Virus record (IMG/VR): IMGVR_UViG_3300027969_002800
Location: 52,994 to 116,993 of that record
DNA: 64,000 nt
Direction: 5' to 3' (one strand)
Source of the DNA: a virus
The notes beneath the pieces were generated by a model. It was not told where the DNA came from. It worked only from the letters and a program-made list of their open reading frames with translations, and did no database searches. Positions 40,373 to 41,882 of the stretch are shown here, one piece after another; the first letter of the stretch is position 1; each line of letters opens with the position of its first letter. The translations under genes and the position numbers were made by a program.

Positions 40373-40494
40373 ATTATAATGTGTTTTTATAGTTAAATTG
40401 TAAGTTTTAAACTGACTAGAGTGATATAAATCATAATATAATGTGATTTATAAAAGAATAAGGGCTCCACTACAGAGCCCTTGAATTCTCCTCC

Positions 40495-40641
40495 CTAATA
40501 ACCCAACTTATGCAGTTGGTCTATGTTGGCTTCTACAATATACACACCATGTGTTATTGTACATGAGAATGCTATACACATAGCAAACGCTAATTGTCTG
40601 AATTGCCAAAACTCTGTTGGCTGTAATCTAATTGTCTTCAT
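40495..40641 (-). CDS. Small hypothetical protein, 48 aa, not in ORF track
   Basis: MKTIRLQPTEFWQFRQLAF...LHKLGY; followed by hairpin AAGGGCTC/GAGCCCTT at 40460-40482. Confidence 0.5.
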   Translation of the reverse strand: MKTIRLQPTEFWQFRQLAFAMCIAFSCTITHGVYIVEANIDQLHKLGY

Positions 40642-40674
40642 TTCTATTGTTATTAAGGATTAATACATAATAAG

Positions 40675-40702
40675 AAAAGCCCCTAGTTTCCTAGAGGCTT
40701 TA
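40675..40702 (-). terminator. Intrinsic terminator closing the ncRNA cluster
   Basis: AAAGCCTCTAG-GAAA-CTAGGGGCTTTT on the minus strand. Confidence 0.8.
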
Positions 40703-40869
40703 ATAGGACCTTCTCCCTTGAGAGATGTCAATTGTTGAGGTTAGGAACTTTGGATACCCTGCTTCTCTATGAGTACTCAACACCTTCTCTGCGTGGATAG
40801 GACTCAACATTCGTGGCATGCAAACTACCCAATGTCTGTTACTGTGCTATTTGCGTCAAGTAACTGCTG

Positions 40870-40965
40870 TGATTGAGACAGGACTTGAACCTGTATGTGT
40901 ACCGAGTTTATTTGGATTATGAGTACACTTAACCCAATTAGCGTCTACCATTTCGCCACTCAATC
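40870..40965 (-). ncRNA. Atypical tRNA-like RNA with no canonical anticodon arm
   Basis: Acceptor GATTGAG/CTCAATC, D-arm TGGCGAAATGGTAGACGC, T-arm ACAGG-TTCAAGT-CCTGT. Confidence 0.75.
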
Positions 40966-40982
40966 ATTTAATAATAGATAAA

Positions 40983-41486
40983 CTACATTTTATTTATATA
41001 AGATCTATTTGCAGATATATCACGTATTGTTGCATAAGGTATATCATACTCTATAGATAAATATTTCAAATCTAACTTTTCTTTATTAGTTCTTCTTAAT
41101 GAGATTATATTATATATCTGAGTAACTAAAGTAATATCAAATTGTCTATTAGGTGGTACATGTCCTTTTTGAAACTTTTTACCCTCATCTACTACTAATC
41201 TACCTTTAGCTTTACAATCTTGCATATTATCTTTCTGTGTACCTAAAAATAAATGATTAGGATTTACACATTTTCTGTTATCACATGTATGACAAACTTT
41301 TAATGTATTATCTGTGATATTACCGTAAATTAGCTCATATGATAATCTATGAGAACCATGTGTCTTATCTTTTGTTTTAAATGCACCGTATCCATTTGAT
41401 CTACATGATGCTGTCCATTCCCAACAATCATTCTCTGATTTGATACTTACTTTATCCCAGAATCTTTTAATTTGTTCTTCAGTCAT
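40983..41486 (-). CDS. HNH homing endonuclease within the RNA gene cluster
   Basis: RFWDKV...CWEW...GYG...HRLSY...VCHTCDNRKCVNPNHL.LGT..DN..D. Confidence 0.9.
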   Translation of the reverse strand: MTEEQIKRFWDKVSIKSENDCWEWTASCRSNGYGAFKTKDKTHGSHRLSYELIYGNITDNTLKVCHTCDNRKCVNPNHLFLGTQKDNMQDCKAKGRLVVDEGKKFQKGHVPPNRQFDITLVTQIYNIISLRRTNKEKLDLKYLSIEYDIPYATIRDISANRSYINKM

Positions 41487-41501
41487 AATATAATTATTTT
41501 G

Positions 41502-41550
41502 CCACAGGGATAAGAATTGAACTTACATTTACATACCATTATGCCCTGTG
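41502..41550 (-). ncRNA. 49-nt mini-tRNA-like element with no anticodon arm
   Basis: CACAGGG/CCCTGTG acceptor, CATA-ATGG-TATG hairpin, GTAAG-TTCAATT-CTTAT T-arm. Confidence 0.65.
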
Positions 41551-41882
41551 TGGTGGAGGTGGCGGCATACGATAGCCGCGTCCAAATTACGTTCATCAAT
41601 ACAATTTATACAGCTTATTTAGGGTCAAGCTCAGCTTAACGATCCACCACTCTGTTTAATCTAACAGAGAAATCTTCATTAATTTAGGCTGCTACACCAA
41701 GATCAGTATCTACATTCAATAATGAGAACACTTTGTTCATGTTAGCTTCGATTTGTGCGTTTGCTCCTAGAGCCACTACACGAGAATTGTTTTTGCCATT
41801 TAATTAAATTCACCTTAGTTTACAGTTATCTCTCTGGCTGATTGTATTAATTATTGGTAACCTGTCAAATCCAGTCACCCCC
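41551..41882 (-). ncRNA. ssrA: tmRNA (332 nt)
   Basis: 5' GGGGGTGACTGGATTTGAC; 3' CACCTCCACCA; G3.U70 pair; resume context TAAAT-GGC; tag ends in AA-stop. Confidence 0.93.

What the first reader, a model, noticed from the sequence alone, without database searches (positions are those of the whole stretch)
41684..41797. Phage tmRNA with an unusually long 37-aa tag
Seen: after TAAAT the frame reads GKNNSRVVALGANAQIEANMNKVFSLLNVDTDLGVAA-stop, and the whole RNA is only 332 nt. Known: bacterial tags are usually about 10 aa; Bacteroidota tags begin G(E/D)xN and end LAA. Here host-like ends (GKNN...VAA) surround about 27 extra residues, and the ORF appears to occupy space normally used by pseudoknots. 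The T-loop is also non-canonical (GCGGC-TATCGTAT-GCCGC). Inference: the tag may redirect rescued proteins to a different protease or adaptor, and the altered loop may resist host anti-phage RNases.
Basis: partly seen in the sequence, partly recalled or inferred. Interest (0 to 1): 0.75.

Follow-up and report, generated by a model that had tools for sequence, protein, structure and literature searches.

The report
Phage tmRNA with long tag
This is a real phage-encoded ribosome-rescue RNA (tmRNA) from a large family whose tag-coding frame is three to four times longer than the host's, and this copy also carries an unusual but recurrent T-arm beside a homing-endonuclease gene.

Summary
Infernal finds a full-length tmRNA at 41551-41882 (-), 332 nt, 72.8 bits. 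The 37-codon frame GKNN...GVAA-stop occupies exactly 41684-41797.

The long frame is a family trait. I collected 62 phage loci whose tags run 30-43 aa. Isolated relatives include Flavobacterium phage FpV4 and Cellulophaga phage phi40:1. Five Flavobacteriia genomes have 397-401 nt tmRNAs with 9-aa tags.

The resume context matches the host's, UUAAA(U/C)|GGC. The frame stays in phase across 8 length classes. Two covarying RNA hairpins lie inside the ORF, and pN/pS is only about 0.65. So RNA structure, and not only peptide function, shapes the extension. The post-stop structural RNA is 133 nt against 271-274 nt in hosts.

Within the first collection of family loci, only the window has the odd T-arm (1 of 56). 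Elsewhere it recurs in 12 confirmed standard and permuted tmRNAs with 9- to 37-aa tags. Its stem shows compensatory changes. ARAGORN misses all 12. In the window it belongs to a 3' cassette that also holds an HNH gene.

No evidence supports the proposed protease redirection or RNase resistance.

The parts
41551..41882 (-). tmRNA gene (standard, one-piece form), 332 nt, with encoded CCA
   Evidence: RF00023 at 72.8 bits, full length. Family nhmmer profile 314.8 bits. The acceptor stem GGGGGUG/CACCUCC has a G3-U pair; that pair is G-U in 22 of 22 aligned relatives.
41684..41797 (-). Tag reading frame: 37 codons plus UAA (GKNNSRVVALGANAQIEANMNKVFSLLNVDTDLGVAA)
   Evidence: Sequence. RNA nt 86-199. 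The same frame is open and the other two are closed in 62 of 62 family loci. The resume context UUAAAU|GGC equals the host's UUAAA(U/C)|GGC. The Rfam alignment places the consensus resume codon on this GGC.
41755..41781 (-). Hairpin 1 inside the tag ORF (10 bp, RNA nt 102-128, codons 6-15)
   Evidence: RNAalifold and pair counts on 22 relatives: 100% of cells paired. The G-C pair changes to U-A in 9 sequences and C-G to G-C in 1. The 15-nt in-frame deletion in phi40:1 removes its apical part.
41709..41727 (-). Hairpin 2 inside the tag ORF (7 bp, RNA nt 156-174)
   Evidence: 100% of cells paired. U-A changes to A-U in 7 sequences; C-G changes to U-A in 6 and to U-G in 8.
41650..41669 (-). Post-stop hairpin CUCUGUU/AACAGAG, followed by the invariant UGGUGG
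   Evidence: G-C changes to A-U in 8 of 22 sequences, with other compensatory changes. The 133 nt after the stop fold with z = -2.95.
41562..41579 (-). Variant T-arm GCGGC-UAUCGUAU-GCCGC (8-nt loop, C-G closing pair)
   Evidence: 1 of 56 in the family. Reproduced in independent DNA run X2 with 0 differences. In RNA-library contig X20 the two listed T-arm differences (41578, 41563) are the two partners of one stem pair, C-G to U-A. A stretch of 35 nt including this arm, the acceptor strand and CCA is identical in the permuted tmRNA of L219.
41503..41550 (-). Hairpin directly after CCA (CACAGGG...CCCUGUG), part of the 3' cassette
   Evidence: Shared with L237, where the stem reads CAUAGGG...CCCUAUG, a compensatory change. 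Absent after the tmRNA in L014, L018 and L010.
40983..41486 (-). Free-standing HNH endonuclease gene (167 aa), in an insertion of about 585 nt between the tmRNA and the next tRNA
   Evidence: Pfam HNH_3 33.6 bits (cut-off 24.8). PHROG endonuclease and HNH families down to E 1e-30. In relatives the tmRNA is directly followed by sequence that lies about 680 nt further on in the window. tblastn finds no homologue in the family loci.
40870..40965 (-). 96-nt tRNA with an oversized anticodon/variable region, 3' of the HNH gene
   Evidence: RF00005 at 37.9 bits. ARAGORN calls it tRNA-Thr(agt), 97 nt. The same gene lies between the tmRNA and the conserved downstream element in L084 and appears in L075.

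Best explanation
This is a working phage tmRNA that relies on host factors. The phage encodes no SmpB, ClpP, Lon or CCA-adding enzyme, so host AlaRS, SmpB, EF-Tu and proteases would serve it. It belongs to a large family carried by phages of Bacteroidota-type hosts. Isolated members are Flavobacterium phage FpV4 and its relatives, and Cellulophaga phages phi40:1, phi38:1 and Calle.

In this family the mRNA-like part has grown to 30-43 codons. The region that normally holds pseudoknots 2-4 has shrunk to two simple hairpins.

I infer that translation resumes at the GGC that is homologous to the host resume codon. It would then run through two conserved RNA hairpins embedded in the ORF and end at an ordinary ...VAA degradation-type C-terminus. 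The extension is kept both as RNA structure and as an open frame. A central peptide segment (ANM-x-KVFSL) also looks conserved as protein.

The odd T-arm is a separate matter. The window's last ~33 nt (T-arm, acceptor 3' strand, CCA), a following hairpin and an HNH homing-endonuclease gene form a cassette. This cassette replaced the ancestral canonical 3' end by recombination. The T-arm is of a recurrent variant type that is maintained by compensatory changes, so it is probably functional.

Shown: identity as a tmRNA, family membership, frame conservation, ORF hairpins, cassette boundary, recurrence of the T-arm. Inferred: the resume site, actual tagging, the fate of tagged proteins, and why the T-arm variant exists.
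For: - tmRNA identity.
- Family: 62 loci with 39 distinct tag DNA sequences and 34 distinct peptides. Tag lengths are 30 (3 loci), 34 (1), 35 (40), 37 (13), 38 (1), 40 (2), 42 (1) and 43 (1). The other two frames are closed in 62 of 62.
- Relatives found without reference to the tag also keep the frame. These came from the 5' 22-mer scan and BLAST. FpV4 has 35 aa and phi40:1 has 30 aa, with a 15-nt in-frame deletion and synonymous differences.
- The host resume context is identical. Hosts have 9-aa tags and 397-401 nt tmRNAs.
- ORF hairpins are 100% paired with compensatory changes. For the whole structure, 98.6% of cells are paired against 90.2% in shuffles, the covariation score is 0.282 against 0.122, 0 of 500 shuffles reach the observed value, and slid controls give 37-53%.
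- Cassette: homology of RNA-run contigs X19 and X21 to the window stops at 41579. Both continue with canonical T-arms. X2 bridges the junction with 0 differences.
- HNH insertion polymorphism.
- T-arm recurrence: 33 of 33 loci with the loop (1 viral, 32 metagenomic). The unconstrained 5' partner of stem pair 2 is always complementary, across four pair types.
- 10 of 14 of these loci examined are tmRNAs by Rfam, both standard and permuted.
- Contigs from RNA libraries X19, X20 and X21 cover the tmRNA at word depths 129-294.
Against: - The resume codon is not determined experimentally. ARAGORN, on 14 canonical relatives, picks later in-frame resume codons giving 18-31 aa.
- Outside the seven codons fixed by my own search pattern, pN/pS pooled over pairs is 0.65. 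Window against L010 even gives pN greater than pS. Peptide-level selection on the extension is therefore weak or patchy.
- The AQIEANM conservation in the loci from the second scan is by construction.
- The helix set tested was derived by RNAalifold from the same alignment.
- The T-arm breaks two near-universal tRNA/tmRNA features (a G-C closing pair and a 7-nt T-loop). No experiment shows such an arm works.
- Contigs from RNA libraries cannot prove transcription, because DNA can be present in them, and they cannot show mature ends.
- 3 of the 14 differences of the X20 contig are not listed in the output. I cannot exclude a further change in the loop.
- The host is not identified. The best terminase match among isolates is a Leptolyngbya phage at 40% identity.
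Confidence: 0.65

Rival explanations
1. Translation resumes further downstream, in the same frame (for example at the GCA/GAC codons that ARAGORN picks after the apex of hairpin 1). The real tag would then be about 18-24 aa. The first 11-13 codons would be only structural RNA that happens to be open.
For: ARAGORN-aa tags (ANAQIEANM... or DNAQIEANM...) in 11 of its 14 calls on relatives. Its other calls are 18, 27 and 31 aa. For phi40:1 it aa. The first five codons are the most variable part of the frame. Hairpin 1 covers codons 6-15 and covaries as RNA.
Against: The GGC site has the same upstream bases as the host resume site, and the Rfam model aligns it to the consensus resume codon at high posterior probability. 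ARAGORN's choices are inconsistent between close homologues. The stretch from GGC to the core stays open and in phase in 62 of 62 loci, despite indels of 12 and 15 nt and many substitutions in an A+T-rich context. Even under this reading the tag is two to three times the host's length.
Confidence: 0.2
2. The window's copy is disabled by its aberrant T-arm. It would be a decaying gene, or a decoy that soaks up SmpB, as reported for tRNA-like-domain-only molecules.
For: The loop has 8 nt and the closing pair is C-G, unlike 55 of 56 family members. ARAGORN rejects it. PMC4131195 (passages read) states that a molecule consisting of little more than the tRNA-like domain strongly inhibits tmRNA, perhaps by titrating SmpB.
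Against: The tag frame, G3-U pair, helix 2 and CCA are intact. The same arm occurs on 12 Rfam- or nhmmer-confirmed tmRNAs of unrelated backbones, scoring up to 143 bits. Stem pair 2 is complementary in 33 of 33 loci, with four pair types. A near-identical allele in another sample carries a compensatory double change. These are signs of a structure under selection, not decay.
Confidence: 0.1
3. The extra ~27 residues are a functional peptide module that sends rescued proteins to a different protease or adaptor, and the altered T-loop protects the RNA from host anti-phage RNases.
For: The central segment ANM-x-KVFSL(L/I) recurs in members found without the tag pattern: FpV4, L010 and L237, with synonymous differences visible. 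The 27-aa Mycoplasma tag is thought to have shifted recognition to Lon (PMC8403727 and PMC3985003, passages read).
Against: The C-terminus keeps the ordinary AA-type end. No phage protease or adaptor was found. pN/pS is 0.65 outside the core. RNA hairpins explain part of the sequence conservation. The odd T-arm is independent of tag length and lies in a recombined cassette with a homing endonuclease. No call bears on RNase resistance.
Confidence: 0.12
4. The variant T-arm exists because it is immune to homing endonucleases that cut the canonical T-loop DNA of this tmRNA gene. Candidates are the LAGLIDADG enzyme of the T-loop intron seen in relatives, or the neighbouring HNH enzyme itself. It would spread by gene conversion.
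For: Four relatives (L011, L061, L034, L087) carry an insertion of about 700 nt at TT^CGA in the T-loop. Rfam scored it as a group I intron in L011 only, the one of the four that was scanned (RF00028, 96.4 bits). A LAGLIDADG-type antisense ORF was found in L011, L061 and L087. The window has an HNH gene 65 nt from the tmRNA end. L233 and L242 look like L051-type genes in which the T-arm has been exchanged, since their 5' and 3' flanks read like L051's. The arm sits on unrelated tmRNA backbones.
Against: Only the window (and its alleles in X2 and X20) has the HNH gene beside the arm. L237, L233, L242 and L219 do not, and L248 has a 31%-identical HNH about 6 kb away. No cleavage data exist. The odd-arm loci were retrieved with a pattern that fixes the loop, so the spread of this exact loop partly reflects the search.
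Confidence: 0.3

Closest known systems
Standard one-piece bacterial tmRNA (Rfam RF00023), as in Flavobacteriia hosts
   Same: Acceptor stem with a G3-U pair, long helix 2, resume context UUAAA(U/C)|GGC, a tag beginning G-x-N-N and ending in AA, then a UAA stop.
   Different: 332 nt against 397-401 nt. 37 codons against 9. 133 nt against 271-274 nt after the stop. Two hairpins inside the ORF. An 8-nt T-loop with a C-G closing pair. Rfam score 72.8 bits against 128-144 bits.
tmRNAs of Cellulophaga phages Calle_1-3, phi40:1 and phi38:1, and of Flavobacterium psychrophilum phages of the FpV4 group
   Same: The same family by nhmmer (241-251 bits) and Rfam (87.6 and 58.2 bits). The same long frame with the AQ(I/V)EANM core.
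   Different: These have canonical T-loops, no encoded CCA, lengths of 359-411 nt, and tags of 30 and 35 aa. Only the Calle records annotate the tmRNA. The listed FpV4-group records (29 rows) show either no feature under the match or no annotation at all. phi40:1 and phi38:1 show a hypothetical protein there. The one paper found (PMC8776804, passages read) only counts one tmRNA in Calle.
Mycoplasma tmRNA with an extended tag
   Same: A tag much longer than the usual ~10 aa. M. pneumoniae has 27 aa and is called unusually long in PMC8403727 (passage read).
   Different: The Mycoplasma tag ends in AFA and is linked to loss of ClpXP and recognition by Lon (PMC3985003, passage read). Here the end is the ordinary VAA/LAA type, the host group keeps a 9-aa tag, and the tmRNA is viral.
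Intron-form tmRNA genes (group I intron in the T-loop, some with LAGLIDADG homing endonuclease genes)
   Same: Relatives L011, L061, L034 and L087 carry such an insertion between loop nucleotides 2 and 3. Only L011 was scored by Rfam. PMC11915505 (passages read) reports intron position 3 only from the class Bacteroidia, and LAGLIDADG genes in 23 of 844 introns.
   Different: The window has no intron (no RF00028 match). It has instead a free-standing HNH gene 3' of the gene and a replaced T-arm. The relatives' LAGLIDADG ORF lies on the strand opposite to the tmRNA.
Permuted (two-piece) tmRNA of betaproteobacterial type, carried by a phage contig (L219)
   Same: An identical 35-nt stretch: UUGGAC, the odd T-arm, the acceptor 3' strand and CCA.
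   Different: L219 is circularly permuted (RF01850 107 bits, RF04321 107 bits) and its frame reads as a 10-aa tag. The Rfam consensus of that family has a canonical T-loop. The odd arm is therefore a variant there too.

Membership tests
tmRNA, standard form (RF00023) | Covariance-model score above the curated gathering score over the full model | tested here: met
   72.8 bits against 47, model 1-374 of 374, E 2e-26; 9e-30 on the whole record.
tmRNA, standard form (RF00023) | tRNA-Ala-like acceptor stem with a G3-U70 pair and a 3' ACCA | tested here: met
   GGGGGUG pairs with CACCUCC, giving G3-U, followed by A-CCA. The G-U pair is present in 22 of 22 aligned relatives. Charging by AlaRS was not tested.
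tmRNA, standard form (RF00023) | Canonical T-arm: 5-bp stem closed by G-C, and a 7-nt UUCGAnn loop | tested here: not met
   The stem is present (5 bp), but the closing pair is C-G and the loop is UAUCGUAU, 8 nt. All 55 other family members read have TTCGAnn, or TTTGATT in one case. The same variant occurs in 11 other confirmed tmRNAs. So it is a variant within tmRNAs and not grounds for exclusion.
tmRNA, standard form (RF00023) | Internal tag reading frame: resume codon a fixed short distance after pseudoknot 1, hydrophobic or Ala-Ala C-terminus, stop codon | tested here: met
   The frame runs from GGC (nt 86) to UAA (nt 197-199) and ends ...GVAA. The upstream bases are identical to host resume sites. 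The Rfam alignment puts the consensus resume codon there. Use of this codon by ribosomes was not tested.
tmRNA, standard form (RF00023) | Four pseudoknots (PK1 before the tag, PK2-4 after it) | tested here: inconclusive
   The PK1 region aligns to the model and is nearly invariant in the family. I did not establish its pseudoknot pairing. After the stop only 67 nt remain before helix 2, and they fold as two hairpins. The Rfam alignment to PK2-4 is mostly deletions at low posterior probability. Reduced pseudoknots are known in plastid tmRNAs and two-piece tmRNAs (PMC3985003, passage read).
tmRNA, standard form (RF00023) | Acts with SmpB | not testable with these tools
   No SmpB (PF01668) in the 116,993-bp virus record. 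A host SmpB would have to serve.
tmRNA, permuted form (RF04321) | Acceptor piece (T-arm to CCA) lies upstream of the 5' acceptor strand and coding piece | tested here: not met
   In the window the 5' strand lies 332 nt upstream of the CCA, and RF00023 matches end to end. RF04321 does not match the window at gathering score.
tmRNA, intron form | Group I intron interrupting the T-loop | tested here: not met
   No RF00028 match in the window, and the T-arm is contiguous. Met in relative L011 (96.4 bits). Inferred from sequence for L061, L034 and L087.
HNH homing endonuclease (Pfam HNH_3, PF13392) | HNH_3 domain above the curated cut-off | tested here: met
   33.6 bits against 24.8. PHROG endonuclease and HNH families, E 1e-30 to 7e-12.
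HNH homing endonuclease (Pfam HNH_3, PF13392) | Presence/absence polymorphism at one site between otherwise collinear genomes | tested here: met
   In L014, L018, L010 and L011 the tmRNA abuts sequence that lies about 680 nt further on in the window. L084 has the tmRNA, a ~27-nt spacer, then the tRNA. L237 shares the T-arm and hairpin but has no HNH gene.
HNH homing endonuclease (Pfam HNH_3, PF13392) | Site-specific DNA cleavage of the endonuclease-free allele | not testable with these tools
   Needs an enzyme assay.

The most novel reading that the evidence does not exclude
Phages of Bacteroidota-type hosts carry their own remodelled trans-translation RNA. The classical pseudoknot scaffold is replaced by hairpins that lie inside a three- to four-fold longer tag ORF. 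The peptide they append (core ANM-x-KVFSL) does something the host's 9-aa tag does not, such as engaging another protease or adaptor, or delaying degradation. The C-UAUCGUAU-G T-arm would be a second, horizontally spreading tmRNA 'elbow' design. It would work with the host machinery while escaping T-loop-directed homing endonucleases or host nucleases, and it has gone unnoticed because ARAGORN-based annotation cannot see it.
Probability: 0.15. Interest if true: 0.75.

Novelty: new variant of a known kind. Interest (0 to 1): 0.5.

Why it matters
tmRNA tags are normally about 10 aa. The 27-aa Mycoplasma tag is the textbook exception, and there the length change went with a switch of protease. 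This is a viral family of at least 62 loci with 30-43 codon tag frames, covarying hairpins inside the ORF and a collapsed pseudoknot region. It gives a natural test of how much of tmRNA's architecture is dispensable, and of what a phage gains by bringing its own tagging RNA.

There is also a practical point. The FpV4-group phage records listed show no tmRNA feature under the match. ARAGORN misses every tmRNA with the variant T-arm (0 of 12) and 6 of 20 canonical family members. Its tag calls for this family are mutually inconsistent. Virome surveys that count tmRNAs with ARAGORN therefore undercount and mis-describe them.

Finally, the locus shows two different homing elements using one tmRNA T-arm, and a chimeric 3' end shared with a permuted tmRNA. 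That is a clear case of modular exchange in a structured RNA gene.

Tried and rejected
- ARAGORN as confirmation: it does not call the window's tmRNA.
- Megablast of 12 kb around the locus against isolated phages gave only a 50-nt match. No close isolate exists.
I reached host-type genomes through chance loci instead.
That is a 4.9-kb contig of a Flavobacteriales MAG with the same length and match coordinates as viral contig L070, so it is probably binned phage DNA.
- Source of the odd T-arm among the permuted tmRNAs that share the window's 5' 22-mer: 10 of 10 have canonical T-loops, so this is rejected.
- The beta-type permuted family as the natural home of the odd loop: the Rfam consensus is canonical, so this is rejected.
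- A link between HNH and the odd arm in general: tblastn of the HNH protein found nothing in the family loci. Among the 33 odd-arm loci it found one distant hit, about 6 kb from the tmRNA.
- An intron ORF related to the window's HNH: no, the intron ORFs are LAGLIDADG-type.
- A phage-encoded SmpB, ClpP, Lon or CCA-adding enzyme: none found in the 117-kb record.
- The conserved element 3' of the tRNA: no Rfam family at E up to 1 other than chance-level hits.
- Gut contigs L220, L221, L223 and L228 carry the odd arm, but Rfam calls no tmRNA there at gathering score. I found no 5' acceptor strand within 700 nt upstream. Downstream within 600 nt, only L220 gave a candidate, at +592, which I could not read further. 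These remain unresolved.
- Parts of the stretch not covered by X2, X19 or X21 contigs are not interpreted.
- Literature: the searches 'phage-encoded tmRNA' (0 papers) and tmRNA + tag peptide + bacteriophage + group I intron (0 papers) found nothing. Searches gave the papers cited. I found no description of long tags in phage tmRNAs in the passages read. The supplements of PMC11915505 list its 79 phage tmRNAs. Supplements are closed, and they may already contain members of this family or the variant T-arm.
One search failed on a term that was too short and was re-sent.
Full report
**1. The observation**

Infernal against Rfam 15 finds one tmRNA in the window, at 41551-41882 on the minus strand. 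It matches model positions 1-374 at 72.8 bits (gathering score 47), E 2e-26 (the same on the whole virus record). That is 332 nt.

On the RNA strand the bases after UUAAAU read GGC AAA AAC AAU UCU CGU ... GUA GCA GCC UAA. This is GKNNSRVVALGANAQIEANMNKVFSLLNVDTDLGVAA plus stop.

The 3' end reads GGAC-GCGGC-UAUCGUAU-GCCGC-CACCUCC-A-CCA. The acceptor stem has the G3-U pair, the T-stem has 5 bp, but the loop has 8 nt and the closing pair is C-G. ARAGORN does not report the gene.

The window is phage DNA. It is part of a 116,993-bp virus record rated complete. It encodes a large terminase, portal, major head protein, DNA polymerase and rIIA/rIIB.

**2. A family, not a one-off**

blastn against isolated phages matched the 5' half of the RNA. 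The matches were 29 Flavobacterium psychrophilum phage records of the FpV4 group, and Cellulophaga phages phi40:1, phi38:1 and Calle_1-3. Rfam confirms tmRNAs in FpV4 (58.2 bits) and phi40:1 (87.6 bits).

Two scans of the viral contig collection brought in many more:
- a scan for the 22-nt 5' end;
- a scan for a degenerate back-translation of AQIEANM (74 stretches).

An nhmmer profile of seven aligned members then recognised nearly all of them as the same RNA.

From 62 loci, window included, I extracted the frame. There are 39 distinct tag DNA sequences and 34 distinct peptides. Lengths are 30 aa (3 loci), 34 (1), 35 (40), 37 (13), 38 (1), 40 (2), 42 (1) and 43 (1). One further locus (L086) was dropped because no G-K/N start was found.

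The other two frames contain stops in 62 of 62. Nearly every tag ends in AA (VAA, LAA, AAA, MAA, IAA). The exceptions are MVA (L045) and VGV (the phi40:1 type).

The AQIEANM core is conserved by construction in the loci from the second scan. The following were found without it, by the 5' scan or BLAST, and still keep the frame:
- L005, L011 and L014;
- L010 (AQVVANM);
- FpV4 (GNTNNSVVSLEDNAQVEANMNMAFSLIREDVAVAA);
- phi40:1 (30 aa, with a 15-nt in-frame deletion).

This is shown. L237, found later through its T-arm, has a different N-terminal half but keeps ANMSKVFSLI.

**3. Comparison with hosts**

I reached five Flavobacteriia genomes through chance loci of another scan. All have one high-scoring tmRNA (128.5-143.6 bits) of 397-401 nt. 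ARAGORN tags are GENNYALAA (4) and GNNNYALAA (1).

Their resume codons are preceded by UUUUAAAU, UUUUAAAC or UUAUAACU. The window has AAUUAAAU|GGC. The Rfam alignment also places the consensus resume codon on this GGC with high posterior probability. The phage frame therefore looks like the host tag (G-x-N-N ... AA) with about 28 codons inserted.

After the stop codon, the hosts have 271-274 nt to the 3' end and the window has 133. Between the stop and the 3' strand of helix 2 the window has 67 nt. More exactly, the pseudoknot 2-4 region has collapsed while the ORF has grown.

It gave one tmRNA, on a small contig that duplicates a viral contig. I therefore have no sign of a cellular tmRNA of this kind, but that search is incomplete.

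**4. What constrains the extension**

Peptide-level constraint is only moderate. Nei-Gojobori counts on 35 distinct main-clade tags, leaving out the seven pattern-fixed codons, give pooled pS 0.253 and pN 0.166, a ratio of 0.65. For window against FpV4, pS is 0.53 and pN 0.31. For window against L010, pN exceeds pS.

RNA-level constraint is clear. RNAalifold on 22 family members predicts two hairpins inside the ORF. Explicit pair counts show both are 100% paired with compensatory changes:
- Hairpin 1 (window 41755-41781, codons 6-15): G-C to U-A in 9 sequences.
- Hairpin 2 (41709-41727): U-A to A-U in 7 sequences and C-G to U-A in 6.

For the whole tested structure, 98.6% of cells pair against 90.2% in shuffles. 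The covariation score is 0.282 against 0.122, and 0 of 500 shuffles reach it. Slid controls give 37-53%. One caveat: the helices came from the same alignment.

The A/A to S/D amino-acid switch (VVALGAN to VVSLGDN) is the protein shadow of the hairpin 1 covariation. The phi40:1 deletion removes exactly the top of hairpin 1.

The extension is therefore kept as RNA structure that must stay translatable. The single-stranded middle (ANM-x-KVFSL) is also conserved as peptide in distant members.

**5. The resume site is inferred**

ARAGORN detects 14 of 20 canonical-arm family members. It places the resume codon later in the same frame: 24 aa in 11 cases, and 18, 27 and 31 aa in the other three. For phi40:1 it gives 22 aa. 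These choices differ between close homologues.

I prefer the GGC site for four reasons:
- homology with the host site;
- the position given by the Rfam alignment;
- its position a dozen bases after the PK1 region;
- the stretch from GGC to the core remains open and in phase across 12- and 15-nt indels.

I put about 0.7-0.75 on the 37-aa reading. Under any reading the tag is at least twice the host's length. The reference list of PMC3985003 names the classical work on how the resume frame is set (Williams et al. 1999). I did not read that paper.

**6. The T-arm**

Among family members whose T-arm I could read, the loop is TTCGAnn, or TTTGATT once:
- 42 of 43 by regex;
- 10 more read by eye;
- 3 reconstituted across an intron.

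The window is therefore the only exception among 56. In the 43 regex-read loci it is also the only one that encodes CCA.

The difference is not an error. DNA run X2, from a different study than the probable source run, has a contig covering 41505-41616 with 0 differences, and another covering 41270-41472 in the HNH gene.

Contigs from RNA libraries X19 and X21 (word depths 146 and 294) are relatives. Their match to the window ends at 41579, the first base of the T-stem. They then continue with canonical T-arms. The window's 3' end is therefore a replaced segment.

An RNA-library contig in X20 (depth 129) spans 41330-41616, from the HNH gene into the tmRNA. Its two listed T-arm differences, 41578 and 41563, are the two partners of stem pair 2 (C-G to U-A). 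The loop shows no listed change, though 3 of that contig's 14 differences are not displayed.

**7. The variant arm recurs**

A scan of viral contigs for the arm plus acceptor strand found L219. This phage contig has 15 tRNAs and a permuted tmRNA of betaproteobacterial type (RF01850 107.4 bits, RF04321 107.1 bits). Its acceptor piece is identical to the window over 35 nt including CCA. The consensus of that Rfam family has a normal T-loop.

A looser pattern in metagenome contigs gave 32 stretches. Across all 33 loci the 5' partner of stem pair 2, which the pattern did not constrain, is complementary to its 3' partner. All four Watson-Crick combinations occur.

Rfam calls a tmRNA at the arm in 9 of 13 metagenome loci examined. 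Six are standard and three permuted, scoring up to 143 bits. With L219 that makes 10 of 14.

Frames that read as tags on the standard ones range from 9 aa (L250) through 23-24 aa (L241, L249, L245) to 34-35 aa (L237, L233). The variant arm is therefore independent of tag length.

- L233 and L242 are ordinary members of the long-tag family (nhmmer 320 bits). Their flanks read like L051's, but with the arm exchanged. They have no CCA and no HNH gene.
- L237 shares with the window the arm, the CCA and the following hairpin, whose stem carries a compensatory change. It has no HNH gene.

ARAGORN reports none of the 12 confirmed odd-arm tmRNAs: the window, L219, L233, L235, L237, L240, L241, L242, L245, L248, L249 and L250.

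**8. Homing elements at this gene**

The ORF 65 nt downstream of the tmRNA (40983-41486) is an HNH_3 endonuclease (33.6 bits against a cut-off of 24.8; PHROG E 1e-30). It lies in an insertion of about 585 nt.

In L014, L018, L010 and L011 the tmRNA is followed at once by sequence that in the window starts at about 40870. In L084 the tmRNA is followed by a ~27-nt spacer and the same odd tRNA that follows the HNH gene in the window.

Separately, L011, L061, L034 and L087 carry an insertion of about 700 nt between T-loop nucleotides 2 and 3. Rfam scores it as a group I intron in L011 (RF00028, 96.4 bits), the only one of the four that was scanned. L011, L061 and L087 have an ORF of about 145 aa with a GFFDADGS motif on the opposite strand. 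I recognise that motif as LAGLIDADG-type from memory and did not run a domain search on it.

PMC11915505 (passages read) reports the following:
- T-loop introns at four positions, with position 3 only in Bacteroidia;
- LAGLIDADG genes in 23 of 844 introns;
- 79 phage tmRNAs in its database;
- 10 aa as the commonest tag length.

A homing or recombination origin for the window's 3' cassette is therefore the best-supported account. Whether the variant arm is selected because it escapes such enzymes is an inference (about 0.3).

**9. Function**

The phage encodes no SmpB, ClpP, Lon or CCA-adding enzyme. The RNA must use host factors, and tagged proteins would meet host proteases. The ordinary AA-type C-terminus fits the usual ClpXP-type route, as general knowledge of the pathway and PMC3985003 (passage) indicate.

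Nothing I could compute shows redirection to another protease, and nothing bears on RNase resistance.

What a lytic phage gains from its own tmRNA remains open. PMC7162821 (passage) only lists tmRNAs and SmpB among the translation genes of huge phages. PMC11590407 (passage) speculates about integration.

The host is not identified. The family's isolated members infect Flavobacterium and Cellulophaga. The best terminase match among isolates is a Leptolyngbya phage at 40% identity, then Cellulophaga phages at 31% and crAss-like phages at 25-30%. The four runs I laid are labelled freshwater or lake-water metagenomes.

**10. Verdict**

It is wrong to link the long tag with the odd loop, and its two functional guesses are unsupported.

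The object is a new variant of a known kind. It is a phage tmRNA family with a long, internally structured tag ORF, and this copy carries a recombinant 3' end of a recurrent variant type.

In the papers and passages I could search, neither the long-tag family nor the variant arm is described. The closed supplements of PMC11915505 may list members.

Noticed in passing
window 40870-40965 (-); also L084 and L075: A 96-97 nt tRNA. Its acceptor, D- and T-arms fit the tRNA model (37.9 bits), but its anticodon region is 32 nt instead of 17. ARAGORN calls it Thr(agt), with A instead of U before the anticodon. Its identity, and whether it holds an intron, are unresolved. It lies between the tmRNA (or the HNH gene) and a conserved downstream element.
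   Followed up: partly
window about 40452-40869 (-); L014, L018, L010, L082, L084, L047 directly after the tmRNA or tRNA: A conserved, hairpin-rich element beginning CAGCAGUUACUUGA. It starts immediately after the discriminator base of the tmRNA (relatives) or of the odd tRNA (window, L084). Identity to the window is 77-88% over 100-420 nt. No Rfam family matches it. It may be another processed small RNA.
   Followed up: partly
L006-L009, L012, L013, L015, L017, L019, L020 (viral contigs): Ten phage contigs share the window's first 22 nt. Rfam scored five of them (L006, L008, L012, L017, L020) as permuted two-piece tmRNAs (RF04321, 67-75 bits). In all ten a canonical T-arm and acceptor 3' strand lie just upstream of the 5' acceptor strand. 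Most have a 10-aa frame (GEQVEMAMAA type). L012 and L017 have 39-codon frames ending AMAA, so long tags arose in a second phage tmRNA form.
   Followed up: partly
L011, L061, L034, L087: An insertion of about 700 nt at T-loop position TT^CGA of the long-tag tmRNA. It scores as a group I intron in L011, the one scanned. In L011, L061 and L087 the putative LAGLIDADG ORF lies on the strand opposite to the tmRNA and intron.
   Followed up: partly
L220-L232 and other ~100-kb metagenome contigs, several labelled human gut: The same variant T-arm lies in regions rich in Hatchet ribozymes and RAGATH RNAs. L226, L236 and L246 look like permuted tmRNAs, with a GGGGCUGA... coding piece 25-177 nt downstream. 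In L220, L221, L223 and L228 Rfam calls no tmRNA at gathering score. Phage cr128_1 also matched the window's post-stop hairpin at 94.9% over 39 nt.
   Followed up: partly
Phage records of the FpV4 group (e.g. L002), phi40:1 (L003), phi14:2 (L004): The tmRNA is not annotated in the listed FpV4-group records. In phi40:1 a hypothetical protein (gp041) is annotated across it. In the crAss-like Cellulophaga phage phi14:2, ARAGORN finds a 470-nt tmRNA (tag GSSVQKLAMVA) under several small hypothetical CDSs.
   Followed up: no
L016 (contig of 268,739 bp): A huge-phage contig has a different, higher-scoring tmRNA (99.5 bits) that shares the same 22-nt 5' end. One frame, read by eye, ends in EEASVVA.
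   Followed up: no
L219 5545-5985: Directly after the permuted tmRNA, the phage contig encodes a protein of about 147 aa that looks like a small heat-shock protein of the Hsp20 type. This is from reading the sequence only, with no domain search. The contig also has 15 tRNA genes.
   Followed up: no
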